This document shows positions 13,746 to 40,300 of a stretch of 64,000 nt of DNA, in pieces; the stretch's first letter is position 1; each line of letters begins with the position of its first letter. Below the pieces are notes generated by a model that was not told the DNA's origin, made no database searches, and saw only the letters and a program-made list of their open reading frames with translations. The DNA is taken from contig JAUCBJ010004787.1 of the NCBI GenBank assembly GCA_032718475.1, forward strand, positions 53,736 to 117,735, written 5' to 3'. Position numbers and translations under genes: made by a program. Source of the stretch: Nemertoderma westbladi (taxonomy: Eukaryota; Animalia; Xenacoelomorpha).

Positions 13746-14983
13746 ACGAGTGGAGGATCAGGACTGCCGCGCCCACAGCGACAACAGCCGGAGCTCACAG
13801 CTCGCGCCAAGTACCAGAAGGAGGAGTCCTTGGCAAGCGTCAAGCCAAGGACGAGCAGTTCCATTCTATAAAGTTGCAGAAGGAGGAGTTGGCGGAGGCG
13901 CCCACAGGGACACGGCAAATGGGACGAGGCCGAGGGAGGAGCACCAGTCGGGAGATAGTCGGTGCCCAGGGAACGTCGTCGCCGGTTCCGGGAAGTGACG
14001 CCTCAAGGACGCCGTCAACAGAGTCTACAGGGGGTAGACTGGTGTATCTGGGGAAGGGACAAACGAGAGGAACGAGCCCGAGAGACCCAGGAGCTAGCCG
14101 ATGAGACTATAATATCACGGAGCGACAAACTCTAGACATATACATCATCGTCGCTCTGATGTATATCGTAGGTTTTGATCAATCATTCGACTGGACTCAT
14201 ATACACTAGTCGTATCCATATTTTAGAGTTTTATTTTCGAAGGCCGAAAAATATTGAAAGGAAATAATTTTATTTTATAGTCCGTTGGAAATATGATTTT
14301 GAGCCTATACTATATTTGATTTTGTGTATATGACTTTATTTGCTCTAAAGTTTATTGAAAGAGGCAAAGGAAGTGATTGGGGAGACAAACCCGCGGGTTT
14401 GGCTTACTCCTTTCACTTACCTGAGCAATCATCAAACCAAGATGATTTGCGTTTTTTATAAGAAATTAAGTAAAGTCCGAAAATGAGAGAAATTATTACG
14501 TATTTTATATTTAATTTGATTATCGGCCTTTAATGCAATTTAGTTAAAAATTTAGCCTCAAATACATTTATATTTAGTTTATCTTGTTAATGTTGATCGT
14601 TAATTTGAGATGGGAAATGGGGGACATTGTCCTAGCCATGTTCCATTTCAATAGGTAGACCGTCAATTTGTAAATAAATAAAGGAAGTAATATTTTGTAA
14701 ATTTAATTTTGTATGTAGTAATCATTATGTAGAACGAACGAGAAACAATATTTTGTAAATTTAATTTGTATGTAATTATCGTTAAACAGTGAGAGAAACA
14801 ATATTTGTAAATTTAATTTGTATGCAATTCCATTATGCAATATCTATGGCAATATTTGTAAATAGTAGAATTTATAGTATCAAGTATTTTAGATTATTTG
14901 AAAGAAATTTATTTTGTTTGTATACATCACCTTATACTCTTCTACAGTTGGAGGGAAACATTGTATGATTTCCCTTGGAGCAG

Positions 14984-16315: not shown

Positions 16316-16373
16316 ATGAGGATATATATAAGATTGAGTGGATATTTACTGCTTCTTCTGTACTTTAACAACG
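16316..16373 (+). CDS. Cadherin exon 1 (signal peptide)
   Basis: MRIYIRLSGYLLLLLYFNN G|gtaaga, phase 1; joins exon 2 to give ...FNNVVSG-NQH. Confidence 0.7.
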
Positions 16374-19300
16374 GTAAGAAACAATAAGGGTTGATGTTGT
16401 CGAACAAGTTGATTGATCGTCTCGTGATTGTTGAATCTGTCACGGATATAAATATTACACGACAAAAATGTAAAAAACCGCGGCAGAAATTATTACAAAG
16501 CGTTGAAAAAACAATCATATTTTCTATTAATAGGAAGTGACTTCTCTGCCGCTGCCTTTTTTAACGCCACTAATTGAATGCCACCCCAAATTAGATGATT
16601 TAACACCAAAATAAATTATTTTGCACCAAATATAATTTTTGTAGCACCAATTCGCATCCCCCAATTTTGAATATCCTTCTCATCAAAAACAATTATTAAT
16701 CCCCCAAAAACAATTATTCATCCTCCAAAAACAATTATTAATCCCCCAAAAACAATTATTCATCCTCCAAAAACAATTATTGATTCCCCAAAAACAATTA
16801 TTCATCCTCCAAAAACAATTATTGATTCCCCAAAAACAATTATTGATTCCCCATAAAACAATTATTATTTCCCCAAAAACAATTATTTATCCCCCAAAAA
16901 CAATTATTCATCCCCCAAAAACAATTATTCATCCGCCAAAAATAATTACTTGTCAACCAAAAAAAATTATTCCAGCACCAAATATTTCATATTAACTACG
17001 CTTTTGTCAGTTGCCATGCTTCAGTTACAGTATTCGTACCGATAGGTCTATTGCCTATCTATTATTGCCTATGGCCTATTACTTATTCTGTTATTAGGTT
17101 TTAGTATTACGGCAATACTGAAGTTTTCAGATAGGGAGGGGGGAAACTGGACGCAATAAAAATTAATCCCTCTCCAGGGGAAATTCGACGCAAATAACAG
17201 CTGAATATTCTCAAAAATAAAACTGTAACCTGTTCTATTGCGCTTAGTTTATTGTTTTGGTTAAAATAACGTGCCACTGTAACCTGCTCCTTTCCCTAAA
17301 TTGAGAATTTAACATTGAGGCGGGATATTAATTCGCCAAGACGGGTTGTGCATCCAGTCCCCCCTCGTGTCGAAGTTTTTATCTAAATTCCAGGAAGTGC
17401 AAGGCTTATTGCTGCAGTAGTATTTGGGGGATTAAATATTTATTTTGGCAAAAATTTATTTGTTTTGGGGGAAAATGTATTTATTTTGGGCGAAATTGTA
17501 TTTGATTTGGGGGAAAATATATTTGTTTTGGTGGAAAATGCATTTATTTTGGAAAAATTTGTTATTATTTTGGGGGATTTGTCATTTATTTTGGTGCTAA
17601 TATTTGGTTTTGGGGAGGATTTATTTATTTTGGTATTGAATAATTTGTTTTGGTGTTGAATAATTGTTTTTGGTGTTGAAAAATTTGTTTTGGTGTTTGA
17701 ATAATTTTATTTGGGATAACATTATTTAATTTGGTGTAAAAAAAATTTTTTGTGAAAGTTTCATCAATTTTGGGATGACTTTAATTGGTAGCCATTTTTT
17801 AATTTCTCCCATAGATGTTTAATTTTTGCCATTGCTTTTTAATTTCTATAGTGCCGTATATGTTGCCGACTGTTATGTGCCAATGTTATTTAATTAACAG
17901 TTAATAACAGATAACAGTCAATTTGTCACACAAGTTCCTTAATTAATCTAAACATGTATTATTAATTTTTATTAATCCATAATTAGTTTCAGTTGTCAGC
18001 GGCAACCAACACCTCCTGATTGACGGTGTGGTGTCGTACACCGCGGGTACAGTAGATGAGAACTCCGTACTCGGTACCAATGTCATACCATCAACCAAAA
18101 TACAAACCAATGCAGCGGGTGTGGACGGCCCAATTACAAACAACAATCTCATCAGCTCTGTGACAATAATTGGGAATGAGTTGGCGACGCAGGCCTTCCA
18201 GATAACAATACTTGAAAACGACCCCACAGTTAATACTGGACAGAGCTTCAAGGTTAGTAAATACTGAAAGAGCTTCATGGTTAATAAATCTGGACCGAGC
18301 TTCAAGGTTAGTAAATACTGGACGGAGCTTCAAGGTTAGTAAATACTGGACATAGTTTCAAGGTTAGTAAATACTGGACATAGCTTCAAGGTTAGTAAAT
18401 ACTGGACGGAGCTTCAAGGTTAGTAAATACTGGACATAGCTTCAAGGTTAGTAAATACTGGGCAGAGCTTCAAGGTTAGTAAATACTGGACGGAGCTTCA
18501 AGGTTAGTAAATACTGGACATAGCTTCAAGGTTAGTAAATACTGGATATAGCTTCAAGGTTAGTAAATACTGGACATAGCTTCAAGGTTAGTAAATACTG
18601 AACATAGCTTCAAGGTTAGTAAATACTGGACAGAGCTTCAAGGTTAGTAAATACTAGACAGAGCTTCAAGGTTAATAAATACTGGACATAGCTTCAAGGT
18701 TAGTAAATACTGGACATAGCTTCAAGGTTAGTAAATACTGGACATAGCTTCAAGGTTAGTAAATACTGGTCAGAGATTCAAGGTTAGTAAATACTGGACA
18801 TAGTTTCAAGGTTAGTAAATACTGGACAGAGCTTCAAGGTTAGTAAATACTGGACATAGCTTCAAGGTTAGTAAATACTGGACATAGTTTCAAGGTTAGT
18901 AAATACTGGACAGAGCTTCAAGGTTAGTAAATACTGGACATAGCTTCAAGGTTAGTAAATACTGGACAGAACTTCAAGGTTAGTAAATACTGGACATAGG
19001 TTCAAGGTTAGTAAATACTGGACAGAGCTTCAAGGTTAGTAAATACTGGACAGAGTTTCAAGGTTAGTAAATACTGGACAGAACTTCAAGGTTAGTAAAT
19101 ACTGGACATAGCTTCAAGGTTAGTATATACTGGACATAGCTTCAAGGTTAGTAAATACTGGACTGAACTTCAAGGTTAGTAAATACTGGACATAGGTTCA
19201 AGGTTAGTAAATACTGGACAGAGCTTCAAGGTTAGTAAATACTGGACATAGCTTCAAGGTTAGTAAATACTGGACAGAACTTCAAGGTTAGTAAATACTG

Positions 19301-22300
19301 GACATAGGTTCAAGGTTAGTAAATACTGGACAGAGCTTCAAGGTTAGTAAATACTGGACAGAGTTTCAAGGTTAGTAAATACTGGACATAGCTTCAAGGT
19401 TAGTAAATACTGGACAGAACTTCAAGGTTAGTAAATACTGGACATAGCTTCAAGGTTAGTAAATACTGGACAGAGCTTCAAGGTTAGTAAATACTGGAAA
19501 GAGTATCAAGGTTAGTAAATACTGGACATAGCTTCAAGGTTAATAAATACTGGACAGAGCTTCAAGGTTAGTAAATACTGGACAGAGTTTCAAGGTTAGT
19601 AAATACTGGACAGAGCTTCAAGGTTAGTAAATACTGGACAGAGCTTCAAGGTTAGTAAATACTAGACATAGGTTCAAGGTTAGTAAATACTGGACAGAGC
19701 TTCAAGGTTAGTAAATACTGGACAGAGTTTCAAGGTTAGTAAATACTGGACAGAACTTTAAGGTTAGTAAATACTGGACAGAGCTTCAAGGTTAGTAAAT
19801 ACTGGACAGAGCTTCAAGGTTAGTAAATACTGGACAAAACTTCAAGGTTAGTATATACTGGACAGAGCTTCAAGGTTAGTAAATACTGGACAGAGTTTCA
19901 AGGTTAGTAAATACTGGACATAGTTTCAAGGTTAGTAAATACTGGACAAAGCTTCAAGGTTAGTAAATACTGGACATAGCTTCAAGGTTAGTAAATACTG
20001 GACAGAGCTTCAAGGTTAGTAAATACTGGACAGAGTTTCAAGGTTAGTAAATACTGGACAGAACTTCAAGGTTAGTAAATACTGGACATAGCTTCAAGGT
20101 TAGTATATACTGGACATAGCTTCAAGGTTAGTAAATACTGGACTGAACTTCAAGGTTAGTAAATACTGGACATAGGTTCAAGGTTAGTAAATACTGGACA
20201 GAGCTTCAAGGTTAGTAAATACTGGACATAGCTTCAAGGTTAGTAAATACTGGACAGAACTTCAAGGTTAGTAAATACTGGACATAGGTTCAAGGTTAGT
20301 AAATACTGGACAGAGCTTCAAGGTTAGTAAATACTGGACAGAGTTTCAAGGTTAGTAAATACTGGACATAGCTTCAAGGTTAGTAAATACTGGACAGAAC
20401 TTCAAGGTTAGTAAATACTGGACATAGCTTCAAGGTTAGTAAATACTGGACAGAGCTTCAAGGTTAGTAAATACTGGAAAGAGTATCAAGGTTAGTAAAT
20501 ACTGGACAGAGCTTCAAGGTTAATAAATACTGGACAGAGCTTCAAGGTTAGTAAATACTGGACAGAGTTTCAAGGTTAGTAAATACTGGACAGAGCTTCA
20601 AGGTTAGTAAATACTGGACAGAGCTTCAAGGTTAGTAAATACTAGACATAGGTTCAAGGTTAGTAAATACTGGACAGAGCTTCAAGGTTAGTAAATACTG
20701 GACAGAGTTTCAAGGTTAGTAAATACTGGACAGAACTTTAAGGTTAGTAAATACTGGACAGAGCTTCAAGGTTAGTAAATACTGGACAGAGTTTTAAGGT
20801 TAGTAAATACTGGACAAAACTTCAAGGTTAGTATATACTGGACAGAGCTTCAAGGTTAGTAAATACTGGACAGAGTTTCAAGGTTAGTAAATACTGGACA
20901 TAGTTTCAAGGTTAGTAAATACTGGACAGAGCTTCAAGGTTAGTAAATACTGGACATAGCTTCAAGGTTAGTAAATACTGGACAGAGCTTCAAGGTTAGT
21001 AAATACTGGACAGAGTTTCAAGGTTAGTAAATACTGGACATAGTTTCAAGGTTAGTAAATACTGGACAGAACTTCAAGGTTAGTAAATACTGGACAGAGC
21101 TTCAAGGTTAGTAAATACTGGACAGAGTTTCAAGGTTAGTAAATACTGGACAAAACTTCAAGGTTAGTAAATACTGGACAGAGCTTTAAGGTTAGTAAAT
21201 ACTGGGCAGAGCTTCAAGGTTAGTAAATACTGGACAGAATTTCAATGTTAGAGCCAATGTTTCAGAGTCAAAGTTTCAATGACAGCTTCACGAACCTGTG
21301 ATGGGCTGGACTAATTACTGACTACGTGTTAACTGGACCACGTATTAATTAAATTTATGTTGATGTGTTGGACTAGCCATTTACGGGACCATGTATTATA
21401 TTTAGGTTGATGTATTGGATAGCACCAAATTGAATTTTGAATACCAGCCGAAAATTCCAATGAGTATTATGATAACATATTACAATGATGCGGGCGGCAT
21501 ACATACTAGCTACGCTAGTGCCGAGATCCAAGTAAAAGACGTCAATGAAAGACCCAGATGGGACCCCAACACACCTCGTTCTTTATATGTTGAGGAAAAC
21601 GGTGAATACTATTAATTTATTGATTAATAATTAATAATAAATAAATGATAATTAATAATTAATTCTATCACTATATGGCCGTGATTTTATCGGATACTTT
21701 TAATTCGGTATCTCATGATGACAGAAATCATTATATTACTACAGTTATTTCATCTTACTTTATAGCTCAGTAGCAATTCAATTTACCTAAAAAAACCAAT
21801 TCAATGTTATGTAATCATAAAATATTTTATGTGGAGATAAAATTCTAATTTATAACCAATTTATTAGAGGTTATATATATACTCTTGTTTCACTGATAGC
21901 CTGTTCTCAACGTTATGATTTCATGATTTTAATTGACAATAATCACTTGCTAACAAATAATGAATGGGAGAATCTTTTAGGCTCGTTAATCGAAGGAATG
22001 CCTGTTCACCACCATGGGTGATCTTCCACAGTAAACCCTTCCACTCTGTTTCCTAAAGGAATGCCTGTTCACCACCATGGGTGATCTTCCACAGTAAACC
22101 CTTCCACTCTGTTTCCTAAAGGAATGCCTGTTCACCACCATAGGTAATCTTCCACAGTAAACCCTTCCACTCTGTTTCCTAAAGGAATGCCTGTTCACCA
22201 CCATGGGTGATCTTCCACAGTAAAACCTTCCACTCTGTTTACTAAAGGAATGCCTGTTCACCACCATAGGTAATCTTCCACAGTAAACCCTTCCACTCTG

Positions 22301-25300
22301 TTTCCTAAAGGAATGCCTGTTCACCACCATGGGTGATCTTCCACAGTAAAACATTCCACTCTGTTTCCTAAAGGAATGCCTGTTCACCACCATGGGTGAT
22401 CTTCCACAGTAAAACCTTCCACTCTGTTTACTAAAGGAATGCCTGTTCACCACCATAGGTAATCTTCCACAGTAAACCCTTCCACTCTGTTTCCTAAAGG
22501 AATGCCTGTTCACCACCATAGGTAATCTTCCACAGTAAACCCTTCCACTCTGTTTCCTAAAGGAATGCATGTTCACCACCATGGGTGATCTTCCACAGTA
22601 AAACCTTCCACTCTGTTTCCTAAAGGAATGTCTGTTCACCACCATAGGTAATCTTCCACAGTAAACCCTTCCACTCTGTTTCCTAAAGGAATGCCTGTTC
22701 ACCACCATAGGTAATCTTCCACAGTAAAACCTTCCACTCTGTTTCCTAAAGGAATGCCGGTTCTCCACCATAGGTAATCTTCCACAGTAAAACCTTCCAC
22801 TCTGTTTCCTAAATGAATGCCTGTTCACCACCATGGGTAATCTTCCACAGTAAACCCTTCCACTCTGTATCCTAAAGGAATACCTGATCACCACCATGGG
22901 TGATCTTCCACAGTAAACCCTTCCACTCTGTATCCTAAAGGAATACCTGATCACCACCATGGGTGATCTTCCACAGTAAACCCTTCCACTCTGTTTCCTA
23001 AAGGAATGCCTGTTCACCACCATAGGTAATCTTCCACAGTAAAACCTTCCACTCTGTTTCCTAAAGGAATGCCGGTTCTCCACCATAGGTAATCTTCCAC
23101 AGTAAAACCTTCCACTCTGTTTCCTAAAGGAATGCCTGTTCACCACTATGGGTGATCTTCCACAGTAAAACCTTCCATTCTGTTTCCTAAAGGAATGCCT
23201 GTTCACCACCATAGGTAATCTTCCACAGTAAAACCTTCCACTCTGTTTCCTAAAGGAATGCCGGTTCTCCACCATAGGTAATCTTCCACAGTAAAATCTT
23301 CCACTCTGTTTCCTAAAGGAATGCCTGTTCACCACTATGGGTGATCTTCCACAGTAAAACCTTCCACTCTATTTCCTAAAGGAATGCCGGTTCTCCACCA
23401 TAGGTAATCTTCCACAGTAAAACCTTCCACTCTGTTTCCTAAAGGAATGCCTGTTCACCACCATGGGTGATATTCCACAGTAAAACCTTCCACTCTGTTT
23501 CCTAAAGGAATGCCTGTTCACCACCATGGGTGATCTTCCACAGTAAAACCTTCCATTTTGTTTCCTAAAGGAATGCCTGTTCACCACCATGGGTGATCTT
23601 CCACAGTAAAACCTTCCAGTCTGTTTACTAAAGGAATGCCTGTTCACCACCATAGGTAATCTTCCACAGTAAACCCTTCCACTCTGTTTCCTAAAGGAAT
23701 GCCTGTTCACCACCATGGGTGATCTTCCACAGTAAAACCTTCCACTCTGTTTCCTAAAGGAATGCCTGTTCACCACCATAGGTAATCTTCCACAGTAAAC
23801 CCTTCCACTGTGTTTCCTAAAGGAATGCCTGTTCACCACCATGGGTGATCTTCCACAGTAAAACCTTCCATTCTGTTTCCTAAAGGAATGCCTGTTCATC
23901 ACCATGGGTGATCTTCCACAGTAAATCCTTCCACTCTGTTTCCTAAAGGAATGCCTGTTCACCACCATGGGTGATATTCCACAGTAAACCCTTCCACTCT
24001 GTTTCCTAAACGACCCAGGTTGGTGTGTCCAGCGGTTACCACCTACCCCATCCCAGGTTGGTGTGTCCAGCGGTTACCACCTACCCCATCCCAGGTTGGT
24101 GTGTCCAGCGGTTACCACCTACCCCATCCCAGGTTGGTGTGTCCAGCGGTTACCACCTACCCCATCCCAGGTTGGTGTGTCCAGCGGTTACCACCTACCC
24201 CATCCCAGGTTGGTGTGTCCAGCGGTTACCACCTACCCCATCCCAGGTTGGTGTGTCCAACGGTTATAACAATTTAATCATTACGATACTAATAATTAAT
24301 TTCCACCCATAGTGGCACCAAGCTCTGTCTTGTTTACCTATGGTAACGATGGTTTCCTAAGGGACGAAGATGCCACCGACACAATGGCCATGACTGCCTT
24401 CACTTTCACCTCAACTGATACCTGCAATTATTTTGTTGTTGGTGCAACTAGCGGTGCACTGGAAGTTGACACTGGGGTAACCGTGGATTACGAAACAAAC
24501 AAGCAATGCACCGTAGTAATCACGTAAGGCCATTTATATTTTAAGTATTGTGATTATCGAAAGATAAATATACTGAGCTACCTTGATGTAGTGGTCAGCA
24601 TGTTAGCATGAGTTCAACCCTAATCGGCGGCGTGTTGTATATTTTTCTTGCTTCTATTACCAAGGGGTTGTTCTGTTTATCCGAAGCCCTTGTTTAAATT
24701 GACATGTTTAAATCTGGTATTAATTCGCATTATAGAAATTTCGCACTATTGTGTCCCTAGGCAAGACACTTTAGACATTAGTGCCTACGTCAACCCAGCG
24801 GTATAATGGGAACCTGGCTTTGCTGGGGCAATGATAATAAAAGCGCTTTGAGTATGCTGAGCGTATAAAAGCGCTATATAAATAACCAATATTATGGATG
24901 TAGGACAATTCGGTCCCGGACAATTCGGTCCGGACAATTCGGTCCCGGACAATTCGGTCCCGGACAATTCGGTCCCGGACAATTCGGTCCCAAAACACTA
25001 AATAAATGAGACCGAATTGTCCGGGACCGAATTGTCCGGGACCGAATTGCCCTAGGACCGAATTGTCCTAGGACCGAATTGTCCGGGACCGAATTGTCCG
25101 GGACCGAATTGTCCGGGACCGAATTGTCCGTTTCCTGATAGCAACTTTAAGTGCTTTTTTGATATTGGTGAATGTTCTAGAACATTAGTAGAGATATTTG
25201 TTATGGTAGCTAGTGTTATTTACTTGCTAGAATTTTTTGAAATTTTAAAAATACTGTATTTTTTTTTATTTTTGTTATTGGTAGTGTTCGAGAACATTAT

Positions 25301-28300
25301 TATATATTATTTATTAAGGTGAAGCTAGTGTTTTTTTTTACTAGCTAGCATTTCCTTGAAATTATATAAATACCTGTGAAAACATTGATATTTCAGAATT
25401 AGGCCTAAACTGTTGCTGATTATATTAATTACCAACAATATTGATGATAATATCATTATTATCATTATTATAACAGTCTCTGAATGAGATCCAGCTATTA
25501 TCTAGGATAATAATTTAGGCTTGTTAACCAACCAACAACACATACAGTATACATGCGCAATATATTAAAAAAATCAGCTTTAAACATTTTAAATACATAC
25601 TATTACTAGCTAGTAAATAATTCACAAGCTCCATAAAAACACCATAGCTACCATAAATAATAATGTTAACAAAAAAAAGTAAATTTTTTTTATTTAAAGA
25701 AAAATACTAGCTAGCAAAAAAAACACTAGCTACCATATAATAATATATATTAAGGTTCTAGAACATTCACCATTATATAGTACCAATTAAAATTTGGTCC
25801 CGGACAATTCGGTCCCGGACAATTCGGTCCCGGACAATTCGGTCCCGGATAATTCGGTCCCATTAATATGCATGTTTTGGGACCGAATTGTCCTAGTCAG
25901 TATTCGGACAATTCGGTCCCGGACAATTCGGTCCCGGACAATTCGGTCCCAAAACCTAAAATTAATGGGACCGAATTGTCCGGGACCGAATTGTCCGGGA
26001 CCGAATTGTCCGGACCGAATTGTCCGGGACCGAATTGTCCTGCTTCCCAATATTATTATTATTATTATTAAATTTCTTTACCTATTTCAGTAATAAATCA
26101 AAAAATATTTCTCACATACAATTTTCTACCCCAGAGATGTCAATATTCTGGTCTAATATGGGCATTATCCGGCTTGATTTTGTTGTTTTATGATTAACCA
26201 GGTCTCATTTCTCCCTTAAAACCTTAATAGGTAGATGATGAGTAACAGTTTCCTCTGGGGTTTAGAATTCTGGGTAGACCACATTGTAAATAAATCCCCA
26301 GATTGTGTGTGTAATATCTGGCACAACAGCCGAAGAAAACTTTACTTTTTTATTGTTTAGCGCTAAAGATGGCGGTCCTCTAAGCACAGACCCACCTCTT
26401 ACTGTTACTGTAAACATCGGAAACCTCAACGACAATGACCCCGTATTTCAACCAGCTGCGGGGGCTAAGTACGCATTGGCGAGCATCCCAGTCGGTACGA
26501 AAGCGTTCACACGAGTAATCGTACCCGGCACCGGTAACAACAATATTAAAGCTACAGACGCCGATGAGAACGATTATACACGATACAAAATCATTGTTGG
26601 TAAGTATAATTGAGTAGGTCGTATTGGGATCACATAATGGCAGCTCTGCTCTGACAGAAGAAACCTATTATTATTACAACTTATCTAATCCCCTTTAAAT
26701 ATATAATGTAAGTTTATTATTGTTGCAGGTGAGCAGATAATGGCTGTGAATGAGTTAACTGGAGAACTGCGATTGCTGAAGGCGGTTGCTGATGATGCTA
26801 ACTTTAATGTCGGCACAGAGCAGACCTACAAGGTGCAAGCCACTGACCACGATGGTGCAACAGCGACACGGGATATAACAATCACCTTCTCCAAAGACAA
26901 CGCTGGTCCTCCCGTTTGCAATGCACTGACATTCGTTTCTGACGATGAAGATGTTCTAGTTACAGGTAAAATGGGTTAACAATTGTTGTATTGTAATTAC
27001 ACCATAGTAATGAAAAGTAATGTCATGCTTGCTGGCATCGATGTGTCATTATCGTAATGTTTATAATTCATAGGCAGTCACGAACTTTTCATTTATGATA
27101 TTCTAAGTTTTTACAAGTTTCATTCATTTAATTCGTTCATTAATTTCTTTAATAACTAATCTTATCAATATTTAGTGTCGGCACCTTCAACCTTCACCTG
27201 GTCTTGTTATATTATGGTTGTTATGCGTTACACAATGCATATATTCACTATGCTTTTTACATAGGTTACACGGTGCATACATTCAGTCACTGCCATGACA
27301 CAAACACACAAACAACAGACGCCGCGCTAACCTATAAAATACTCAGTGGAGACGATACTGCTGCCAAATTCACTATAAATACAAACAAACTGGAAATTAA
27401 CGCTGACATCGACTACGATACAACGTACGCGCAGGCCAGAGGTTTCGTTTACAGTCTGGAGATCGAGGTCACCGATGATGGCGCTCCGTTGGGAGCTGCT
27501 TTCAAACAAAGCTCTACAGTAACCGTCGACGTTGCTGTAAGTACCATTATTATTATGTATCACTATCTCGCAGTGTACTACAGTATTAATTGCCAACCTC
27601 CCTGAACTAAAGGCTTTTGTTAGAGCTGCAATACAGCCTATCCTATTACGCACAATGTGGCCACTCCGCACTGGCCAGTATTACAGATCTATGAAATATC
27701 CAGATCTTTGGATTGACATGTACAATGTACGTACACCAGAATTCTTCCAACAGAATTGTCGGATTTATCACGAAGCTCATAAGGTCTAGACTTTAGAGGC
27801 TTTTTAGGAGAACATTCAGCAAATACTGTGTATGTTATTTTAATGAACTATACCTTAACTTGAGTTATGTATGGTACCTCAGTAAACCTACCCAAATTGC
27901 ATATGTTAACAAAATAGAATAAAGCAGAAAATTAATACAAATCTACATTAGAGAGGTGCCAGTTAGTATTTCGAACTGTAATACCATCGGAGACTAAAAC
28001 TGAAACTATTATTGCATGATTTTCACCAGATTCTACCTAAAAATGATAACACACCAGTGGATCAGCACGGGACGATATCAACCACAATCAGCGAAGACAC
28101 CCCATTGGATACAGTAGTCACTGGACTTAACTCCCTCAGCTGTAAGGATGACGATTTATATGGACCTCATAAAGACGTCTACTGGACATTGTGTAAGTCT
28201 ATTAAGCTAACATGGCAGTTATATTGAGCGATACCTTTAATGACCGGATGGATAACAGCTTGATAAGTCGTTTTTTGACACGTTCAATTATGGAATTAGG

Positions 28301-31300
28301 CCTGACCAACTATCCCAACTCAAAAACCGAACTGAAATGGCATTGCACTGGTATGGTAGCGGTGGAATATTTAAGGGAGTTCATCATTGTGCAACCCCCC
28401 TCCCGGATAAATATCCACAATATTTTACAATCAATCCTCAAGGTGAATAGGTAGCTAGCTACCTATGGTAGAATGCCCGGAGTTCTGGAGGGGAAGACAA
28501 TGAGATCTAACATGCAACACAGTTTCTGCTGTTCTGATCAATACCTAAATTATTGTTAAGTTAGTATAGGCCTTCGTTTGTACTTATAATTACATACTAA
28601 CATGTTTATCTTATTTTTATTTTAAAGCCGGTGGTGGGAATATGTTCAAGATCAATATGAACACAGGGGAGATCAGAACAGCGGGTCGATTTGACCGGGA
28701 GACAACTGCGTCTTATGTCATCACCGCTTCCTGCCACAACCCAGACAGCCCGACCACCAAGAAAGCTGATGTCGCCATTACTGTGAGTTACCAACTCCTA
28801 CTGTTTAAATTGTTCCTTTAAATTGTAATACAAGCAAGCAAGCATTTATTATTTGAAAAGTATCACATCGATGTAACATCGATGTATTTCAATCGATGTA
28901 ACATGACAAATATTTAACAAAAACAACTTAAAAGTAATAAAATATTTTAAATATTTAGAAAAATAGAATGGATAGTTGTTAACTTTTTTTTTAAGTAATA
29001 TATATATTTCCAACAACTTCTATATAGTCCATAATATGATGTAACTGCTCCGAATTAGGTTTAATTTTTCTATTATTACACCTTTAAAGTAAATTAATAA
29101 TTATACAGGTTAATGTATTAGATATCAATGACAACGCATTTACATTCCCGGTACCAATATTGTACGCAACTGTCAGAGAAGACGACCTACCTAGCACAGA
29201 CGTCCTCGCCATCAATTACTCAGATCCCGATGACAATGATGTCGAGGAAGTTATGAATATTAAAGCTGGTGACGATTTCACACAGTATGGTTGTGTGTAT
29301 TTATAGCAACACGTCTGACATCAGCTCACCATTCAGCTACACCAATAATGGTTTCCACAACACCCATCTTATCAACAGCATTCTTTATATCACCACATCC
29401 TTAAAATCATTTCAGTCAATATCTAACACAACCTAACATTTCCTTAAAACACAGCCCAATATTTTGCATGCATCTTTTTCATTAAACCAATTGTTATTAT
29501 GCAGGCAATATAGGGAATAATGTTGCAGGACTTTTTCTTATAAATTAAATATTTTCTATTTTCATTTTCCACTTTTAACACTTCAACTTGTAAAAGAAGA
29601 TATCTTGCCTTTCACTTTTAATACACTCAAATAACATTCATTACATGCATTGGTTGCCCAGGTATCAATTACAGACATCAACGACAATGTGCCTTCATTT
29701 ACGGTGCCTGTAGTCTATGCTACAGTCAATGAAGATGATGGACCCAACACCGTTGTTACCAATCTGGGTTACATAGACCAAGATACCACACCAGCTAACC
29801 CGACCATAACTATAAAGGGCGGTGACTCATACAGCAAGTATGATGTACATCCCAGATGTGATCAATATGACTGCTCCTAGTTTTTTTTTCTTACTAAGTC
29901 CACATTTAATAAATTTTCACAGGATGCGCTTACTAAGTGCACTCTTACTTTTTTTAATCAACTGAAAAATTATCAATACTAACTGCGATATTTTAACTTA
30001 ATTAAACTAATTCCATATCAACATCAATTGGGAATATTGTACAACCTACTGTACAATATTCCACATATAACCAACCACCAACCCCTTTCTTTCTCAACAT
30101 CTTCACACCAATTTTGTCACTAACTTTATCACCAATATATATAACTCATAACCCCTATAACCAGGTATTCTATGTGACATTTTCACTCCAAGCATAACAT
30201 TTTAACCATCACTATCAATGCTGCCTTACACATTTTTAATAATTGTAGTACTGAAATGCAAAAGATTGTTTATCAAAAAGCATAATGAGCAAAATATAAA
30301 ATATTAATAAATTAAGATTTGGCCTGATACACAATTTTTTCACTCGCCTTATAATTTATTTATGTAGCATCTCATTAATCTACTGGTATTCCTTTTGATT
30401 CTCATCACTTTTATTACTATCACACTTCACTGCATTAATCTGCACCGTACAGGTAAGTCTATCGGACGTGAACGATAACGCACCCAGCTTCAGTAACCAA
30501 GCACCCATAGTGTACGGCACAGTTAACGAGGGAGATATTAACGCTGCTACTAACATTGTCCTCGGCTACCAGGACAGAGATACAGTTGGAGGAAAAAAAT
30601 TTTTTCTCAGCGGCACCGGATCCGAAAAGTGAGGCAACAAGTTTATTTATTAATTACTAATGTGTCTCACATTCATTCATTATTAATTCTACCCGTGGTA
30701 TAGTTTATAGGCTTTCCGAAGAATATTTGTAAACAAAATTATATGTTTATTGTTAAATAGAACCTTTATTGTTAAATAGAACCTTTATTGTTAAATAGAA
30801 CCTTTATTGTTAAATAGAACCTTTATTGTTAAATAGAACGTTTATTGTTGAATAGAACCTTTATTGTTTCATATCATAATTTCATGTCGGGTGCTTCGCT
30901 AATAGACTTTATATATTAATTAACTTAATTTACTTCAATTATAAAATTTGCTTATTATATACAATTCAAAATTTTGATATTATTTGGAAATTCATTACTG
31001 TATCATGTCCTTTTTAAGCCAAGTGAAATTTATTTTTTTCAAAAATTGAAATAGTTGAATAAACGTCACATTTTACATATTATTCATTTAAGCTTCCAAG
31101 TGACCACGGTTACTTCCACCACAGTACTTCAGGTGCGCACTGCTATAGACTTAGAAACCACAGGTCTACGTAACTACCAGCTAAGCATAGAAGGACAGGA
31201 TGGCGCTAATCCCCCAGCTACAGTACTCGTATTTGTCGAAGTGTTACCCGTCAACGAATTCACCCCGACATTCCTCAGTGTTCCCACAGCAACTGTTAGT

Positions 31301-34300
31301 ATATAAATACAATAAAATATTACAAAGAATATAATTATTAGATTCTTTTTCAGAAGTGAATATCTTGTTGAAACAAAAATGAACGATGTTATAACTATTT
31401 ACATACTTGTGTGTAAAGTAGCACTTTACAGTGTGATGATCCGAGTGGCTTTGTTACACGAACGAACGTTAGTGAGTGAGTGAAAATAAAGCCACGAGGA
31501 TCAGAACACTGTAAAGTACTTTGCAAGAAGTAAGTATGTAGTGTTATTCCAAAATTTTAACATTATGAAGTGATTGTACATATACATTATAAGTGATAGA
31601 AACTGCACAAATTAAATTAGTTGCTGTATAAATAAATGTAAAATGACATAAATTATGTTATAAATAAGTTAGCTTATATTTATGGTGGCGTTTGGAGCCA
31701 TATTATAATAATATAGCTAGGCCCTACTGGTTATTAATAGCTATACCCCGCCTACCGGTAGGTAATGCAGTAGGCCTATCTGGCTGTCAGGCAAATTTCC
31801 ACATATTGTTTACGTGGTATCCAATGACGGCGTTAAGTAATGTCCCCTTAGTGGACAATACTTAACGCCGTCATGGGTCACCACGTAAACAATAACACCA
31901 AATACAATACTAAATGTACAAGCCAATACAATGCTGTAATGTCCTCTAAAGTTGTAAAGTGCTAAATAACAACTCGCTGTTAATACTAACTGATGCACCG
32001 GGTAGATCCGCCCTCGATACACGCCTTGGCGAAGCGGCAGAGGTAAACTCCACATTGTTGCGAGTTGAATTTCCGCTTTGTCAGGGGAAGGTCGATTGAA
32101 ATGTCGGGGGCAGGGACGTTAAGCCTCTCAGCCTCCCGGGACGCCCACTCGACGATGGATCCGGTGACGGAGATATTGGTGCCCCCCAACGAGTCGAAGT
32201 AGCGAAGGCGAGCCTTCTTAGGGTGGAGGACCGCCAGGACCCAGTGGTTGCCGTTGAGGTTGACGGGGAAAACGATCGTATCGAGCGCGAATATGTCGCA
32301 GTTCCGCGTTCAGCCTTTAACCGAATTGTATCCACGTTTAGGAGACACGTAGAGGTCGTAGAAATGATGGTTGAAGACCTTTACATTCTCGTTACCACTG
32401 GCGAGAGAGCAGAGGATGGCGTGGATTATGTTGTCCGTTAACCACGACTCCCCCCTCTAGAGAGTCTATATCCCTCTTGGAGAGGGAAACGCCGGAGTAG
32501 GTAGACATCCGGAGTAGGTAGAACGGCAATAAGATTAAAAATAAATTAAAAATAAATTAAAAATAAATTAAAAATAAATTAAAAATAAATTAAAAATAAA
32601 TTAAAATTAAATTAAAAATAAATTAAAACAATATGACAGTAATGGTCAATTGATTTGGTAAGTAGCAGTCCAGCAGTTGTGGTTCGATTTATTGTTTCTG
32701 ACGAATCTGTCTGAACAATTAATTGTTATAACAGATAAAATAAACGTATTATTAACCGATGATTACATTGTCTAGGTTTCGGAGAACGCTCATCCTGGTA
32801 TCGTGATTGTAAACGAACTCATCCCGTTAATCACAGACGAAGATAAATACGAACATGGTATCGACGATGTGTTCTTTAAAATAACAGGTTAGTTAGAAAA
32901 CTAACTTGCATAATGGAAACAAATAGGTCAGAAATTAAATCATTCACTTCATGTATAATATAATTGTGTTCCGTCTTTATTTTGAAAAAATTTTGAAAAA
33001 AAAAGCTTGAAAATGTTATATTCACAACTCCCCAGAATTAATTTCTTATTGTGAATAATTATTATTCAAATATATTCAATATTAATATAAACCTAATAAA
33101 TTATGAAATATTAACTAGTCTTAGTCAGCATTATATTAATCCCAAATAGCGGGAGTTTGTGTAATACCACAGGCTAATTGATTCGCATTTTCTTAATGCT
33201 CTTATTGTAAAGAGACCCTGATCAAATTGTGGGTTAATTATTTTCGAAATGCGCTGATAGAAGTGTCATGTTAAACTGGTAAAATGCTTTCACTAATTCA
33301 TTAGTAGAGTCACGCCAGTTAGCTAATAAATGCTAATAATGAAGATAATTAGTTGTGATTATTACTTTGTTTGCTTGCTTGATAGGTGGTGACACTGGAG
33401 GAAATTTTGTCATTCAACCCAAAACTGGGCAAATCATACTAAAGAAACGAATCGACAGAGAATCACTTGCTAGTCCATTTACTATAAACCTCGATATTCA
33501 GGTAAGTTTTATATCAACGACAGTCAGAATATTATCTGAAAGTAAACATTTTTCTGCAGGATCTGGGTGATAAAACATATTGGATAAATCCCACATATTC
33601 AATGACGATAATGACTAAGTTTTTATAATAATTGATCAATAATAATTTAAATAAATCGATAATATATTGTGAGGATTGATGAGGTATCTTAGCATTGTAA
33701 TTACTTACTATTTGGTGGCTTCTTGGATCCGGGTTCAGTTTTGCAACACACTACATAATGACATCAATGTGGCCAAGTACGGTAGGGTTGAGCACAGTGG
33801 CATCATATGATGGTATTGACAGATGTGATACCATGAGGAGGTTAATTGCGGACATACAAGGTATCAGATAGTATTTCCAGATCTATCTTTTACCTGAGCT
33901 GCTAGCTGAATGGTTAGAGCGTCAAACTTCCAACCCGGAGGTCACCAGTTCGATCCCACCTGGACGTCATTGCCGACTTTGCAAAGCTGTGCCCAACAAA
34001 AAATTATATGAATGTGTGGAAAGTCACTGATTATCTCTATTACTACTACTACTAGGATCGGCATGCTGCATTGCAGATGCATTATATATATATTACATAC
34101 CGGTATATATTAAGAATGCTGTGCCGGCTTGTCGACAAAATTGCGCCGCCACAATTCCCTATCACCGAACCTTAAGTTTCAGATGAATTCTATGTGACTT
34201 CCAAATCCTGGAAAGCCCATTCAAGGCTGTCAATGCCTTTCCCTTACGTATTCGAAGGTCCTCACCTGACTTCCAGATCCATGATCCCAGGTAACAGAAG

Positions 34301-37300
34301 TCGTCCACATGCTCAAGCGTACATACCATATCAAAATTTTTCGTCTTTTTGGAGTTAATAAAAAGACCAACACTAGAAGCAGCCTGTTCTAATGAGCTGA
34401 GGAGCCGTTGGGCTCCCTCTAATGATTCTGAGAGTACTCCTAAGTCATCAGCAAAGTCTAGATCAGTCAGATACTTAGCAGGATTTACTCAACTTCTGGA
34501 GGCATTAGGTGGAGTTACCATCACCCCATCATCATTAAGATTACCTAAAGACATGCGTATAACATAGTCAACCACAATTATGAACAAGAATGGTGCAAGT
34601 GTGTCTCCCTGGAGGACGCCCCATAACTCTTCGAGTGGTTCTGTGTCACCATCAGCAGTAGACACAATGTTGTCGACACAAATACTGACTCTTCCAGACC
34701 AATAATATTAGACCACCCACTGACAAAACATACTGTACTGTTTCCAATACACCGCTGAATAAAATTTTGGTGACTCTCTGGCATCTGGGTGTGGGAAAGT
34801 TTAGCATTTTGTATCAAGTAACTACGATTATCACACTTCTAATAATATAATATTAAATTAATTAATAGTAATTGAGGACATTACATGGTCGTCATTCCCT
34901 AAATAATTTTTGCGCAAAAACCACTCCAAAATCACTCTGTCGGTGATACAATTTAAAGGTTAGGAGAAGTCCATTGTCATTTAGAAGCCTGTCAAGGGAA
35001 GTTATTGATTGGCCGTCTTTATGATCATACCAGGATGTAACATAGTTGAGACCGATATATTTGCTAGAGATAGGAAATGCAACTTAACAAGACTGCCTGT
35101 TTGATAGAAGTGGACTAAATAATATATCAAGTGTCATTGGGGAAGTTGCTGAAATGGATGTTAGCTCAACGGATGAGCTAATTTGGCTCTTTCAACCCCC
35201 ATTGACGTGCTTTTTCCTTTTCCATTTTTTCCATTTCTGAACAAATTCCTATAAGATATTATTATATAATAAGAGGTGTAAAGGAATCATCCTCTAGGAT
35301 AAAGCAGTGATTTGTTATCCAACACGATTGCAGGGTATAGCTGGGAATTGGCAAAGAGGCGCCACCATATTTGTAAAGAAACTTATTGTTTATGTAGTTG
35401 TATGCGAATCCGAGTGTTTCAACGACAATCGGCGCTGACCAATTAAAATATAACAAATACGATATAATTTTTTAGGTTTCCGATGGAGATAAAACGAGTT
35501 CCCAACAGATTCCTGTGGTAATAACGGACGAGCCAGATAGCACACCGAGTTGCGGTGGTGTTTACCATTACTACAAAGCGAACCTACCAGAAACATCGTC
35601 CGCGGGGGATACTGTGGTAAGTCAACTACTCTACTCCATCCCTAAAACAAACGTTTTAAATCCGTCACTATAAAATGTATAATTTTTTTTTATAATTTAT
35701 AAAAAATTTGATTTATTTGATTTTGAATGTGTGAATCAATGAATTTGGTTTTTTTTCAAATAACGTAAATAAAGCACTGTTTGTTTGGGCACAGTGATTT
35801 AAATGTTGCAGCCTAGCCCAACCCTGGCTTACATCCTTCAGTGGTCGATAAATGGAAACCAAGGCAACTTGGGAAACAGAATGGAAGGGTTTACTGTGGA
35901 AGATCACCCATGGTAGTGTACAGGCATTCATTGGCTTAACGAGCCTAAAAGATTCTCCCATTCAATATGGAAACTTAATGCGTTATATTTATTACACAAT
36001 ATTTTCCCGATATTCTGTGTAAATTTCGCATATAACATAGTAATTATATATATTGATATCTCTGTAAAACATGCTTGATCGACTATATATATTTCTATGA
36101 TCGTGAAGTTGCAGAATCTGTTATATATTCAATAAATCTGCCTTTTCATTATATTTTGATTATAAAATATATTTCTAATTATATATCGAAAGGAAGTACA
36201 AAAAAACATATTAATTAATTAATTATTTTCGCATTCTATATAGCTTGCCTTAACAATAGCAAACACGAGTACCATTACATTGTTGGCACCAGGAATCGGC
36301 AGTGGTTCGGAGATGTTACCGGTATCCCGAGTCTGCTGGTTGCCAGTGTTCCTGCTAAGCTGGTCCTCTGATAATGGATACTGTGGCTTTGTTGGGTTAC
36401 AGAGGCGGACAGCTACCTGTCAATGAATCTTACGCACAATCAATGCGGTCTTGATATCTATCAACAAATTGGTTGATACAAATCGTTAGGAACAATGTTT
36501 CCTATTTCCGTTCATATGAATTCATAATATTTAATGAGAGAATCTTTTAGGCTGATTAAACAAAGGAATGCCCGTTCTCCACCATGGGAAATCTTCCACA
36601 GTAAACCCTTCCACTCTGTTTCCTAACTGAATGCCCGTTCACCACCATGGGTGATCTTCCACAGTAAACCCTTCCACTCTGTTTCCTAACTGAATGCCCG
36701 TTCACCACCGTCGGTGATCTTCCACAGTAAACCCTTCCACTCTGTTTCCTAACTGAATGCCCGTTCACCACCATGGGTGATCTTCCACAGTAAACCCTTC
36801 CACTCTGTTTCCTAACTGAATGCCCGTTCACCACCATGGGTGATCTTCCACAGTAAACCCTTCCACTCTGTTTCCTAACTGAATGCCCGTTCACCACCGT
36901 CGGTGATCTTCCACAGTAAACCCTTCCACTCTGTTTCCTAACTGAATGCCCGTTCACCACCATGGGTGATCTTCCACAGTAAAACCTTCCACTCTGTTTC
37001 CTAACGGAATGCCCGTTCACCACCATGGGTGATCTTTCACAGTAAACCCTTCCACTCTGTTTCCTAACTGAATGCCCGTTCACCACCATGGGTGATCTTC
37101 CACAGTAAACCCTTCCACTCTGTTTCCTAACTGAATGCCCGTTCACCACCATGGGTGATCTTCCACAGTAAACCCTTCCACTCTGTTTCCTAACTGAATG
37201 CCCGTTCACCACCATGGGTGATCTTCCACAGTAAACCCTTCCACTCTATTTCCTAACTGAATGCCCGTTCACCACCATGGGTGATCTTCCACAGTAAACC

Positions 37301-40300
37301 CTTCCACTCTATTTCCTAACTGAATGCCCGTTCACCACCGTCGGTGATCTTCCACAGTAAACCCTTCCACTCTGTTTCCTAACTGAATGCCCGTTCACCA
37401 CCGTCGGTGATCTTCCACAGTAAACCCTTCCACTCTGTTTCCTAAATGAATGCCTGTTCTCCACCATGGTAAATCTTCCTCAGTAAAACCTTCCACTCTA
37501 TTTCCTAAAGGAATGCCTGTTCACCACCATGGGTGATCTTCCATAGTAAATCATTCCACTCTGTTTCCTAAAGAAATGCCTGTTCCCCACCATGGGTGAT
37601 CTTACTATTCTTCCATAGTAAACCCTTCCACTCTGTTTCCTAAAGGAATTCCTGTTCACCACCATTGGTGATCTTCCACAGTAAACTCTTCCATTCTGTT
37701 TCCCAAAGGAAGGCCTGTTCACCACCATGGGTAATCTTACTATTCTTCCATAGTAAACCCTTCCACTCTGTTTCCTAAAGGAATTCCTGTTCACCACCAT
37801 TGGTGATCTTCCACAGTAAACTCTTCCATTCTGTTTCCCAAAGGAAGGCCTGTTCACCACCATGGGTAATCTTACTATTCTTCCATAGTAAACCCTTCCA
37901 CTCTGTTTCCTAAAGGAATTCCTGTTCACCACCATTGGTGATCTTCCATAGTAAACCCTTCCACTCTGTTTCCTAAAGGAATTCCTGTTCACCACCATTG
38001 GTGATCTTCCATAGTAAACCCTTGCACTCTGTTTCCTAAGGAATGCCGTTCACCTCCACGGGTGATCTTCCACAATTATTGTGCCTCCCTGTTAATTGTT
38101 TGTTTGAATCTCTCGGACATTCCGCTATTCTAACAATTAAACAAGAGATTAAAATATTTATAATAATGATTCGTACTATATATTATATTCTGTTAATTAT
38201 TAAAAGGGATAAGATATGTATTTGTATTAATTTTACGTTTAATAATTTACGTTCATACCGATATATAGTTTACCGTGCGAGCGCAGCTACTGAAGACAAT
38301 ACGATCGAGTAACATTAAACTGGTTAATAAATCACGATAAAAACTATTAATGCGAATTTTAGTGGTACTTTTAATTCAGTTATTGCCATCTTGAACGGTA
38401 AATAACTTTTTAAACAACTTTTCAATGAAACTGAATTTGAAACCTTAAACGCAGAATGGCAGCTGTTCCGTAAATGCCTCGAAACAAATAATAATTTATT
38501 ATCGTACTTCAACCTAAAACAATTAGTGATTCCTCAGTTGACAACATTATTGTAAGTTTCGAACCAATCGAGTTCCCTCAAAAATTATTTCTTGCAAAGC
38601 AACACTGCATCCGAACTTCAATTGGATAGAGACTTTGAATTGAGAGGAAAATGACAATTATCAGGCCGTACCTGCTTCTTTCTTGCTGTAACCGTATGTA
38701 TACGCAAAGGTAATATAAGGCTATATATATTTAGCCCACAATATGCAACTTCCTCCCAACAAACTCCACTCGCATTAATCTCATTTATTATGCATTATAT
38801 TATATATATCAAGTTCAGGTATACCGCCTGTTAGAGTGGGAGACATGAGGGGGGGGGGGGTGGGGGGGGGGGGGGGACTGGACGCAAAGTTAGGGTGGAG
38901 ATCTTGCTTCCAACATGAAGGTCTTGAGTTCGTGCCCCTCCTGTAAATGATCACCCCAGTTGTCGTTGAATCCATATAAGTAACTAACTTTCAGCCCACT
39001 TTCGATGGTACTAGCTAGTGTTTTCGTTGGTAGCAAATGTTTCATTCCAAAAATATAGCCATTTTACTCTCGATATTTTTACTCTCGATATTTTTACTCT
39101 CGATATTTTTACTCTCGATATTTTTACTCTCGATATTTTTAAACTCCCGATATTTTTACACTCGATATTTTTTGAACTCGCGATATTATCGCAATTTTTA
39201 AACACTCGATGTTTTTACTCGCGATATTTTTCATATCTCGATAGTTTTATTATAACCTTTTAGACTCGATACTGGGGGTGCTACCGTAAGGTTCGATGTT
39301 GAGGCCTGGTTTATGCCACATAGGTGTAATATTGTGGGTTTGTTCAGATATTACACCTTTAATTACAGTTGCAACAGCTCATCTCCAATTTATTTATGCC
39401 ACATAAGTTGAAATGAGAATTGAAATCTAAATGGTTTGGCCGCCTTCAAATACACTAGATTCGGCCCTAAATTGCATTATTAAGCATAATTATGGTAGAA
39501 TGTACTTAAATTAATATCTGATTAGTGCTGTGTATGTGGTCATCTTCCGCAGTAATAATTCCCACTCTGCTTCTCAAAGTTACCTAGATTCCAATTTATC
39601 GACGAGTCAAAGATAAATGTGTGTACTGTACAACCCACAGCAGCTACAACCCACGTCCCGCAGTACCAACAGTGCTACAGTACAACCCATAGGGCCAACA
39701 ACCCACAGCAGCTACAACCCACGTCCCGCAGTACCAACAGTGCTACAGTACAACCCATAGGACCAACAACCCACGTCCCGCAGTACCAACAGTGCTACAG
39801 TACAACCCATAGGACCAACAACCCACGTCCCGCAGTACCAACAGTGCTACAGTACAACCCATAGGACCAACAACCCACAGCAGCTACAACCCACGTCCCG
39901 CAGTACCAACAGTGCTACAGTACAACCCATAGGACCAACAACCCACGTCCCGCAGTACCAACAGTGCTACAGTACAACCCATAGGACCAACAACCCACGT
40001 CCCGCAGTACCAACAGTGCTACAGTACAACCCATAGGACCAACAACCCACGTCCCGCAGTACCAACAGTGCTACAGTACAACCCATAGGACCAACAACCC
40101 ACGTCCCGCAGTACCAACAGTGCTACAGTACAACCCATAGGACCAACAACCCACGTCCCGCAGTACCAACAGTGCTACAGTACAACCCATAGGACCAACA
40201 ACCCACGTCCCGCAGTACCAACAGTGCTACAGTACAACCCATAGGACCAACAACCCACGTCCCGCAGTACCAACAGTGCTACAGTACAACCCATAGGACC

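What the first reader, a model, noticed from the sequence alone, without database searches (positions are those of the whole stretch)
29109..30628. Three-way mutually exclusive exon cluster diversifying a cadherin ectodomain (Dscam-like)
Seen: three tandem exons (29109-29284, 29662-29837, 30453-30628), each exactly 176 nt, AG/GT bounded, phase 0->2 and stop-free. Each encodes the same segment: the DxNDN linker ending EC5 plus the N-terminal half of EC6. No C-terminal half-domain exon lies between them. Exon 9 ends in phase 0 and exon 11 starts in phase 2, so including 0, 2 or 3 of them frameshifts and exactly one restores the frame. They are strongly diverged (10a vs 10b 26/58 identical aa by hand count) yet intact, and 10a lacks the canonical Pro (DINDNAF). 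Established: half-domain mutually exclusive exons diversify Drosophila Dscam1 (Ig2/Ig3), and CadN has two-way pairs. Inference: an independently evolved isoform switch that alters adhesion or recognition specificity in a non-classical cadherin. The intervening introns (377 and 615 nt) are too long for steric exclusion, so RNA pairing or NMD would have to enforce it.
Basis: partly seen in the sequence, partly recalled or inferred. Interest (0 to 1): 0.88.

Follow-up and report, generated by a model that had tools for sequence, protein, structure and literature searches.

The report
Three swappable exons in a cadherin
An animal cadherin gene carries three old, intact, side-by-side copies of one exon, and only a message with exactly one of them keeps its reading frame, so the gene likely makes three versions of a mid-stalk domain, an either-or design known from fly N-cadherin and likely a tuning device rather than a Dscam-style identity code.

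Summary
Observation confirmed. Three 176-nt exons (phase 0 to 2) each encode the EC5-EC6 calcium linker and the first half of EC6. Of 8 inclusion patterns only the 3 single-exon ones stay open, and no second-half exon lies between them. Silent sites are saturated while replacement sites are not (pS 0.73-0.90, pN 0.36-0.41), so these are old duplicates kept by selection. Their donors are weak, and the two internal introns are unusually G-poor and C-rich. A three-way mutually exclusive cluster is likely (0.75), but no transcript was seen. No shared docking/selector pairing beat shuffles and no distant branch point was found, so regulated choice plus nonsense-mediated decay is the likeliest enforcement. 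The Dscam-like specificity claim is weak: the swap is mid-stalk, and fly N-cadherin isoforms with the same kind of swap cross-bind and are redundant (PMC2655722). New detail: the third exon starts with a perfect donor, a possible recursive-splicing site (about 6% by chance). No orthologue was found, and the gene's membrane anchor is not in the window.

The parts
29109..29284 (+). Exon 10a: EC5-EC6 linker and first half of EC6; net charge -12, one N-glycosylation sequon, Phe in place of the linker Pro; donor weakest by U1 pairing
29662..29837 (+). Exon 10b: same module, net charge -7; donor weakest by the gene's own weight matrix
30453..30628 (+). Exon 10c: same module with a 2-codon insertion and a compensating loss, net charge -4
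30453..30458 (+). First six bases of 10c form a consensus donor (GTAAGT): candidate recursive splice site
   Evidence: function inferred
29285..29661 (+). Intron 10a-10b, 377 nt, G-poor and C-rich (skew -0.45)
29838..30452 (+). Intron 10b-10c, 615 nt, G-poor and C-rich (skew -0.43); holds a 13-bp perfect hairpin (30031-30062) and a 225-nt AG-free stretch
28628..28782 (+). Exon 9, common upstream exon (second half of EC5, Pfam Cadherin 35.5 bits), ends in phase 0
31093..31294 (+). Exon 11, common downstream exon (second half of EC6), starts in phase 2
16316..16373 (+). Candidate exon 1 (Met plus hydrophobic signal-peptide-like stretch, phase 1 donor, in frame with exon 2)
   Evidence: inferred
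17993..28192 (+). Exons 2-8 (17993-18252, 21406-21601, 24313-24523, 26361-26599, 26729-26965, 27265-27536, 28030-28192): EC1 to first half of EC5
32776..53173 (+). Exons 12-18 (32776-32887, 33386-33501, 35476-35616, 50410-50518, 51314-51507, 52358-52523, 53029-53173): EC7 to the start of EC10; no further exon of this gene found in the window

Best explanation
Three tandem copies of one cadherin exon, kept intact by selection, of which exactly one is likely spliced into each message, giving three predicted forms of the EC5-EC6 junction that likely tune the stalk rather than encode identity. Shown: the duplication, the frame rule, purifying selection, weak donors and the odd intron composition. 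Inferred: weak splice sites leave the choice to cell-type splicing factors, probably bound on the G-poor, C-rich internal introns, and messages with 0, 2 or 3 copies carry early stops and would be removed by nonsense-mediated decay. Inferred at protein level: all forms keep the calcium-binding motifs (DxNDN, the acidic residue of the first strand, DxD) but differ in surface charge (-12, -7, -4), one glycan site and the linker proline, which would alter stiffness, side-by-side contacts or binding to a partner at EC5-EC6.
For: Frame rule: 3 of 8 combinations open. No intervening half-domain exon and no fourth copy. pS far above pN in all 3 pairs, bootstrap share with pS<=pN at most 0.0005. GC at third positions 0.41-0.48, inside the 0.29-0.59 range of the 16 other exons and above the 0.23-0.32 GC of the four flanking introns. 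Donors rank 1st, 2nd and 4th weakest of 19 by weight matrix; 0 of 3 have T at +6 against 14 of 16 other exons. Internal intron skews -0.45 and -0.43 (p 3e-6, 9e-9) against -0.14 to +0.11 in 13 introns without large satellites. Precedent: 14 of 19 C. elegans clusters with non-3n exons rely at least partly on decay, and homologous trios exist there (PMC4165533); N-cadherin ME-13 is the same kind of module with 47% identity between copies (PMC2655722).
Against: No transcript of any form was seen, so use of all three is unproven. Pairwise dN/dS shows long-term selection, not present use; 10a has lost a nearly invariant Pro. The weight matrix rests on 16 donors of this one gene; by U1 pairing two constitutive donors (exons 11, 17) are weaker than 10b. 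No named motif is enriched beyond composition (YCAY 30 vs 32.0 expected), and 2 of the 3 satellite-filled introns left out of the comparison have similar skews (-0.30, -0.39), so decayed repeats could explain the composition. The gene's 3' end is missing from the window and a second partial cadherin gene faces it, so a rearranged or misjoined locus is not excluded.
Confidence: 0.72

Rival explanations
1. Only one or two copies are still used; the rest were functional alternatives for a long time and died recently.
For: 10a lacks the linker Pro found in 528 of 532 matches. 10c has in-frame indels, a diverged last third and the second-weakest acceptor of 19. Weak donors also fit decay.
Against: All three keep length, phase, both splice dinucleotides and all calcium motifs; exon-like GC3; neutral drift to this divergence leaves 123 of 2000 stop-free and 4 of 2000 with the motif.
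Confidence: 0.13
2. The cluster works like Dscam1: each isoform binds its own kind best, giving a three-letter recognition code.
For: Half-domain swap with about half the residues changed and a charge gradient in the loop after DxD. Variable MXE residues are generally surface-exposed and near functional sites (bioRxiv 10.1101/292813).
Against: Position at EC5-EC6 of at least ten repeats, away from the N-terminal EC1-EC4 surfaces that carry recognition in solved cadherin pairs (recalled). One cluster only: no other exon of the gene is duplicated. N-cadherin isoforms bind each other and rescue equally (PMC2655722).
Confidence: 0.12
3. Exclusivity is enforced by competing RNA base pairing (one docking site, one selector per exon).
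For: One duplex (28833-28857 with 29626-29658, -16.5 kcal/mol) beat 25 of 25 shuffles. 10b and 10c share a short motif about 50 nt before their acceptors (22 of 500 shuffles as good). A 6-bp hairpin covers the 10b donor.
Against: 8 of 9 tests were within shuffle range and no site pairs with all three. Donor-to-branch pairings: 62 of 200 and 72 of 200 shuffles as good. Intron folds z 0.37 and -1.55. Donor accessibility like other exons. Real docking sites are usually found by cross-species conservation, which could not be tested.
Confidence: 0.15
4. Recursive splicing proofreads double inclusion: joining 10a or 10b to 10c rebuilds a donor stronger than their own, which then splices to exon 11 and cuts 10c out.
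For: 10c starts with GTAAGT. Rebuilt donors pair with U1 at -5.6 kcal/mol against -2.9 (10a), -4.0 (10b) and -5.1 (10c's own). 0 of 14 constitutive junctions rebuild a donor above 3.7 bits against 11.4 for exon 9-10c. Expressed recursive exons exist (Ubx; PMC8605326).
Against: Chance is about 0.058 given Val-Ser and this gene's codon use, more over three exons. The exon 9-10c junction rebuilds an equally good donor (-5.4), so it would also threaten the legitimate c form. The exon junction complex represses such sites in hundreds of ordinary exons (PMC6224609). It cannot stop a+b.
Confidence: 0.08
5. The three are constitutive parts of successive repeats, or an assembly artefact.
For: None positive; the locus may hold a breakpoint further downstream.
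Against: No second-half exon between them; no good phase-0 donor that keeps the half-domain; 53% DNA identity and unrelated introns exclude allele or read duplication.
Confidence: 0.02

Closest known systems
Arthropod N-cadherin (CadN) ME-7 and ME-13 exon pairs (Hsu et al. 2009, PMC2655722; abstract, sections 6 and 7 read)
   Same: Tandem homologous exons in a cadherin ectodomain; ME-13 is 54-55 residues and carries DxNDNxPxF; paralogues 47-50% identical, as here (45-51%).
   Different: Three copies, not two. The gene is not a recognisable CadN orthologue (best identity 27.8% over at least 300 residues among 261 of 270 fetched cadherins that hit; 23.6% to a shrimp neural cadherin). Only one cluster seen in EC1-EC9; no expression data.
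Drosophila Dscam1 exon arrays (PMC4835542 and PMC4165533, passages read)
   Same: Tandem duplicated, part-domain exons chosen one at a time in a cell-surface protein.
   Different: Cadherin not Ig fold; 3 variants in one cluster against 12, 48, 33 and 2; exon length not a multiple of three, so decay can act; no docking site detected; isoform-specific binding untested and doubtful.
Homologous MXE trios in C. elegans (lev-11 5a/b/c, gly-5 9a/b/c; PMC4165533) and human three-exon clusters (SLC12A1; PMC8373072); passages read
   Same: Three same-sized exons, frameshift on double inclusion, decay as partial safeguard.
   Different: Those are tropomyosin, a glycosyltransferase and a transporter, not adhesion proteins; they are experimentally or cDNA supported.
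Expressed recursive-splicing exons (Ubx m1/m2, PMC8605326; EJC-repressed RS-exons, PMC6224609); passages read
   Same: Exon begins with a donor hexamer that is completed by the preceding exon.
   Different: Here it is the last member of a homologous cluster in short introns; a search for 'mutually exclusive' found 0 occurrences in PMC8605326 and 1 in PMC6224609, which was not among the passages shown.

Membership tests
Homologous mutually exclusive exon cluster | Tandem homologous exons of equal length and phase | tested here: met
Homologous mutually exclusive exon cluster | Exactly one exon restores frame and domain; no constitutive exon between | tested here: met
Homologous mutually exclusive exon cluster | Each copy under coding constraint | tested here: met
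   pairwise, long-term; GC3; present-day use not shown
Homologous mutually exclusive exon cluster | Transcripts with each exon alone and few with two | not testable with these tools
   No run was available to lay on the locus; see Tried and rejected
Cadherin superfamily | Tandem EC repeats with DxNDN, xE, DRE and DxD calcium motifs | tested here: met
   nine repeats and the start of a tenth; profile of the three exons matches 90 solved cadherin sequences
Cadherin superfamily | Signal peptide and transmembrane anchor | tested here: inconclusive
   Candidate signal exon found; no membrane-spanning exon in the window
Arthropod N-cadherin / classical cadherin | Orthology to CadN ectodomain | tested here: not met
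   23.6% to a shrimp neural cadherin, no better than to unrelated cadherins; only one such protein in the set
Arthropod N-cadherin / classical cadherin | EGF/LamG region and catenin-binding tail | not testable with these tools
   3' end outside the window; no genome held
Dscam1-type recognition system | Large, combinatorial exon arrays | tested here: not met
   One cluster of three; no other duplicated exon among those in the window
Dscam1-type recognition system | Docking/selector RNA pairing shared by the variants | tested here: inconclusive
   No shared site above shuffles; cross-species conservation unavailable
Dscam1-type recognition system | Isoform-specific homophilic binding | not testable with these tools
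   Needs binding assays
Steric (branch-point) exclusion | Branch point within about 50 nt of the upstream donor with an AG-free zone to the acceptor | tested here: not met
   AG-free zones 62 and 85 nt in introns of 377 and 615 nt (the 50-nt figure is recalled)
Recursive-splicing exon | Donor rebuilt at the exon start, at least as strong as the exon's own | tested here: met
   for 10c
Recursive-splicing exon | Use of the rebuilt donor (lariat or intermediate reads) | not testable with these tools
   Needs nascent RNA reads

The most novel reading that the evidence does not exclude
An independently evolved three-way cadherin switch in which the charge-graded EC5-EC6 variants bind different partners or their own kind, and in which exclusivity is helped by recursive splicing at the start of the last exon instead of docking-selector pairing. 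That would be a cadherin using Dscam-type internal exon choice for recognition and a new way to keep exons mutually exclusive.
Probability: 0.1. Interest if true: 0.75.

Novelty: new member of a known kind. Interest (0 to 1): 0.4.

Why it matters
If the three forms are used, half-domain exon swapping has arisen in a cadherin lineage other than arthropod N-cadherin, with a larger cluster. That offers an independent test of an open puzzle: why N-cadherin keeps divergent alternative exons for 400 million years although the proteins seem redundant. The cluster is small (1.5 kb) and suits a minigene, which would test decay, RNA pairing and recursive splicing side by side. Five literature searches listed no three-way cadherin cluster in titles, abstract starts or the passages read. 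Subscription journals are not searched and supplementary catalogues of predicted exons were not opened, so a listing there cannot be excluded.

Tried and rejected
RNA evidence: no RNA holder was listed for 26200-33500; this is no evidence either way, and no reads could be laid. No whole genome is held. Orthologue searches found only generic cadherins: exon profile against longer proteins (876 hits of 2132 candidates, 120 listed), against 31-102-residue proteins (no candidate), exon 6 against cluster representatives (328 hits, 150 listed, best 48%), metagenome contigs (34 loci of 428 stretches, at most 27.6% among the 15 best matches to the modelled protein). A search with the neighbouring DHHC protein to place the taxon returned nothing at E 1e-20 among 875 candidates; the threshold was too strict, so the animal group stays unknown. 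The ESM Atlas gave no answer. No structure was predicted, so domain geometry of the isoforms is unmodelled; strand assignments rest on alignment to solved cadherins. Rejected: hidden second-half exons; a decayed fourth copy at 30166, where a 3' site-like AG follows a 225-nt AG-free stretch (no profile match); steric exclusion; shared docking site; donor sequestration as a special feature; YCAY, GCATG or ACTAAY enrichment; homology between the internal introns (52 of 100 shuffles as good). The EC-profile scores of 10a-c (31, 33, 21 bits) were not counted as evidence, because the profile was partly built from proteins found with these exons. An in-frame join of exon 18 to the DHHC frame at 53471 (1 of 13 acceptors) was judged chance: poor pyrimidine tract and wrong membrane topology (recalled).

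Full report
What is there. The window holds the 5' part of an intron-rich animal cadherin gene on the + strand: a candidate signal-peptide exon at 16316-16373 and exons 2-18 from 17993 to 53173. With one exon 10 included, the model is open for 1050 codons and gives nine EC repeats and the start of a tenth. Exon 9 passes the Pfam Cadherin cut-off (35.5 bits; 1 of 16 exon products tested), and a profile of the three exons matches 90 solved cadherin sequences at the linker and first strands.

The cluster. Exons 10a, 10b and 10c lie at the stated coordinates, are 176 nt each and stop-free. Of the 8 inclusion patterns only the 3 single ones are open; the other 5 stop within 78 nt of the first wrong junction, with 7 or more exons still downstream. 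Each internal intron has one stop-free phase 2-to-0 candidate, neither cadherin-like, and no other exon of the gene has a duplicate in the window. A DNA profile finds three copies only. Alternative phase-0 donors near the exon ends score at most 1.7 bits; those further inside would cut the half-domain short.

Selection. pS is 0.73, 0.90 and 0.81 and pN 0.38, 0.36 and 0.41 for a-b (58 codons), b-c and a-c (43 alignable codons each; the diverged last third of 10c was left out). At most 0.0005 of 2000 bootstraps reversed the order. Neutral simulation to the a-b DNA identity (53%) gave 14.2 identical residues on average, never 26, and kept an open frame in 123 of 2000. Third-position GC is exon-like in all three. 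This shows long-term constraint on each copy; it cannot exclude a recent death of one.

Splicing signals. By a leave-one-out matrix from the 16 other exons, the donors of 10b (-0.5), 10a (0.9) and 10c (4.3) are the 1st, 2nd and 4th weakest of 19, and the acceptors of 10c and 10b the 2nd and 3rd weakest; the 10a acceptor is ordinary. None of the three has T at +6, against 14 of 16 others. By U1 pairing the picture is softer: exons 11 and 17 are weaker than 10b. AG-free zones before 10b and 10c are 62 and 85 nt, so there is no distant branch point and no steric block. Both internal introns are G-poor and C-rich (30 G to 79 C; 50 G to 126 C), against skews of -0.14 to +0.11 in 13 other introns; three satellite-filled introns were left out, two of which are similarly skewed. 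Of 11 motifs tested none was clearly enriched over dinucleotide shuffles; the best was CAC (19 of 300 shuffles as high).

RNA pairing. Nine docking-type tests gave one duplex better than all 25 shuffles and no site common to the three exons. Pairing of donor-proximal with acceptor-proximal sequence was unremarkable for a-b and b-c, whole-intron folds had z 0.37 and -1.55, and donor accessibility was like that of the other exons. Without sister species this is a weak negative.

A recursive site. 10c begins with GTAAGT. Joined to exon 9 it rebuilds a donor of 11.4 bits, above exon 9's own (10.8) and 10c's own (4.3); 0 of 14 constitutive junctions exceed 3.7. After 10a or 10b it would pair with U1 better than their native donors. 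It could turn a+c and b+c intermediates back into single-exon messages. Against this: the chance level is about 0.058, the exon 9-10c junction is equally exposed, and the exon junction complex silences such sites in hundreds of normal exons (PMC6224609, 12 passages seen); expressed recursive exons are known in Ubx (PMC8605326, 12 passages). I give it 0.08.

Protein effect. All three keep DxNDN, the acidic residue after the first strand and DxD. They differ in net charge (-12, -7, -4), only 10a has an N-glycan sequon, and 10a has Phe for a Pro present in 528 of 532 linker matches. That variable residues of such exons tend to be exposed and near functional sites is reported in bioRxiv 10.1101/292813 (12 passages). 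That cadherin recognition surfaces lie mostly in EC1-EC4 is recalled, not tested.

Relatives. No orthologue was found; the best identity over at least 300 residues was 27.8% among 261 of 270 fetched proteins that hit. Scan look-ups showed no look-alike stretch and no other cadherin note in this genome. The animal group was not determined.

Integrity caveat. No membrane-spanning exon and no further exon of the gene were found after 53173 by simple motif and profile scans. An intronless DHHC frame follows on the same strand, then three exons of another cadherin on the minus strand (about 59987-59805, 58179-58058, 56811-56636) whose continuation was not found either. Large introns, nesting, an inversion or a misjoin could each explain this; the window has no N.

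Comparison. Arthropod N-cadherin has three exon pairs; ME-13 is 54-55 residues with the same linker motif and 47% identity between copies, the isoforms bind each other in S2 cells and rescue equally, and ME-13a/b are tissue-regulated (PMC2655722: abstract, sections 6 and 7, three passages). In C. elegans 22 of 29 clusters are homologous, two are homologous trios, and 14 of 19 non-3n clusters lean on decay (PMC4165533, 12 passages). Human three-exon clusters are discussed in PMC8373072 (12 passages). PMC9013439 names CadN as the cadherin example (7 passages). Dscam1 isoform-specific binding is stated in PMC4835542 (8 passages). Other papers were seen as search listings only; no supplements were opened.

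Verdict. A real and probably functional three-way mutually exclusive cluster (0.72-0.75), a new member of a known kind. It works like N-cadherin ME-13 more than like Dscam1, and it fails the Dscam membership test on array size. Interest 0.40; the boldest reading has probability 0.1 and would merit 0.75.

Noticed in passing
window 18228-21251: A 28-nt repeat of 108 copies is made of the end of exon 2 and its donor (106 donor-motif copies), a splice-donor minisatellite like those noted elsewhere in this genome.
   Followed up: partly
window about 49600-50420: A tandem array built from the acceptor of exon 15 (16 acceptor-like copies) precedes the real exon start at 50410.
   Followed up: partly
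window 53499-54575 +: Intronless 358-codon DHHC palmitoyltransferase frame (Pfam PF01529, E 4e-28) only 326 nt after cadherin exon 18, on the same strand.
   Followed up: partly
window 56636-59987 -: Three intact exons of a second cadherin facing the first gene; neither gene's 3' part was found in the window. Possible inversion, misjoin, nesting or very large introns.
   Followed up: partly
window 21993-24010 and 36566-38074: The same 63-nt minisatellite family (32 and 24 copies) sits in introns 3 and 14.
   Followed up: no
window 39630-49440: A 10-kb higher-order C/A-rich satellite (52/68/120/204-nt units) fills most of the 14.8-kb intron 14.
   Followed up: no
window about 4500-13750 +: BEL/Pao retrotransposon frames (Peptidase_A17, integrase zinc finger) upstream of the gene.
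   Followed up: no
window 61081-63105 -, fragments near 34165-34700, 50807-50968, 55180-55480, 60040-60440: A reverse-transcriptase frame of 675 codons (RVT_1) with several shorter copies in both orientations.
   Followed up: no
window 29978-30165: A consensus branch-point-like heptamer, a perfect 13-bp hairpin (30031-30062) and a long AG-free run end at an AG followed by GT, inside intron 10b-10c; unexplained, no homology to the exons.
   Followed up: partly
window 24903-26040: Clusters of a 15-nt repeat in both orientations flank a ~650-nt spacer in intron 4, resembling a foldback or miniature transposon.
   Followed up: no
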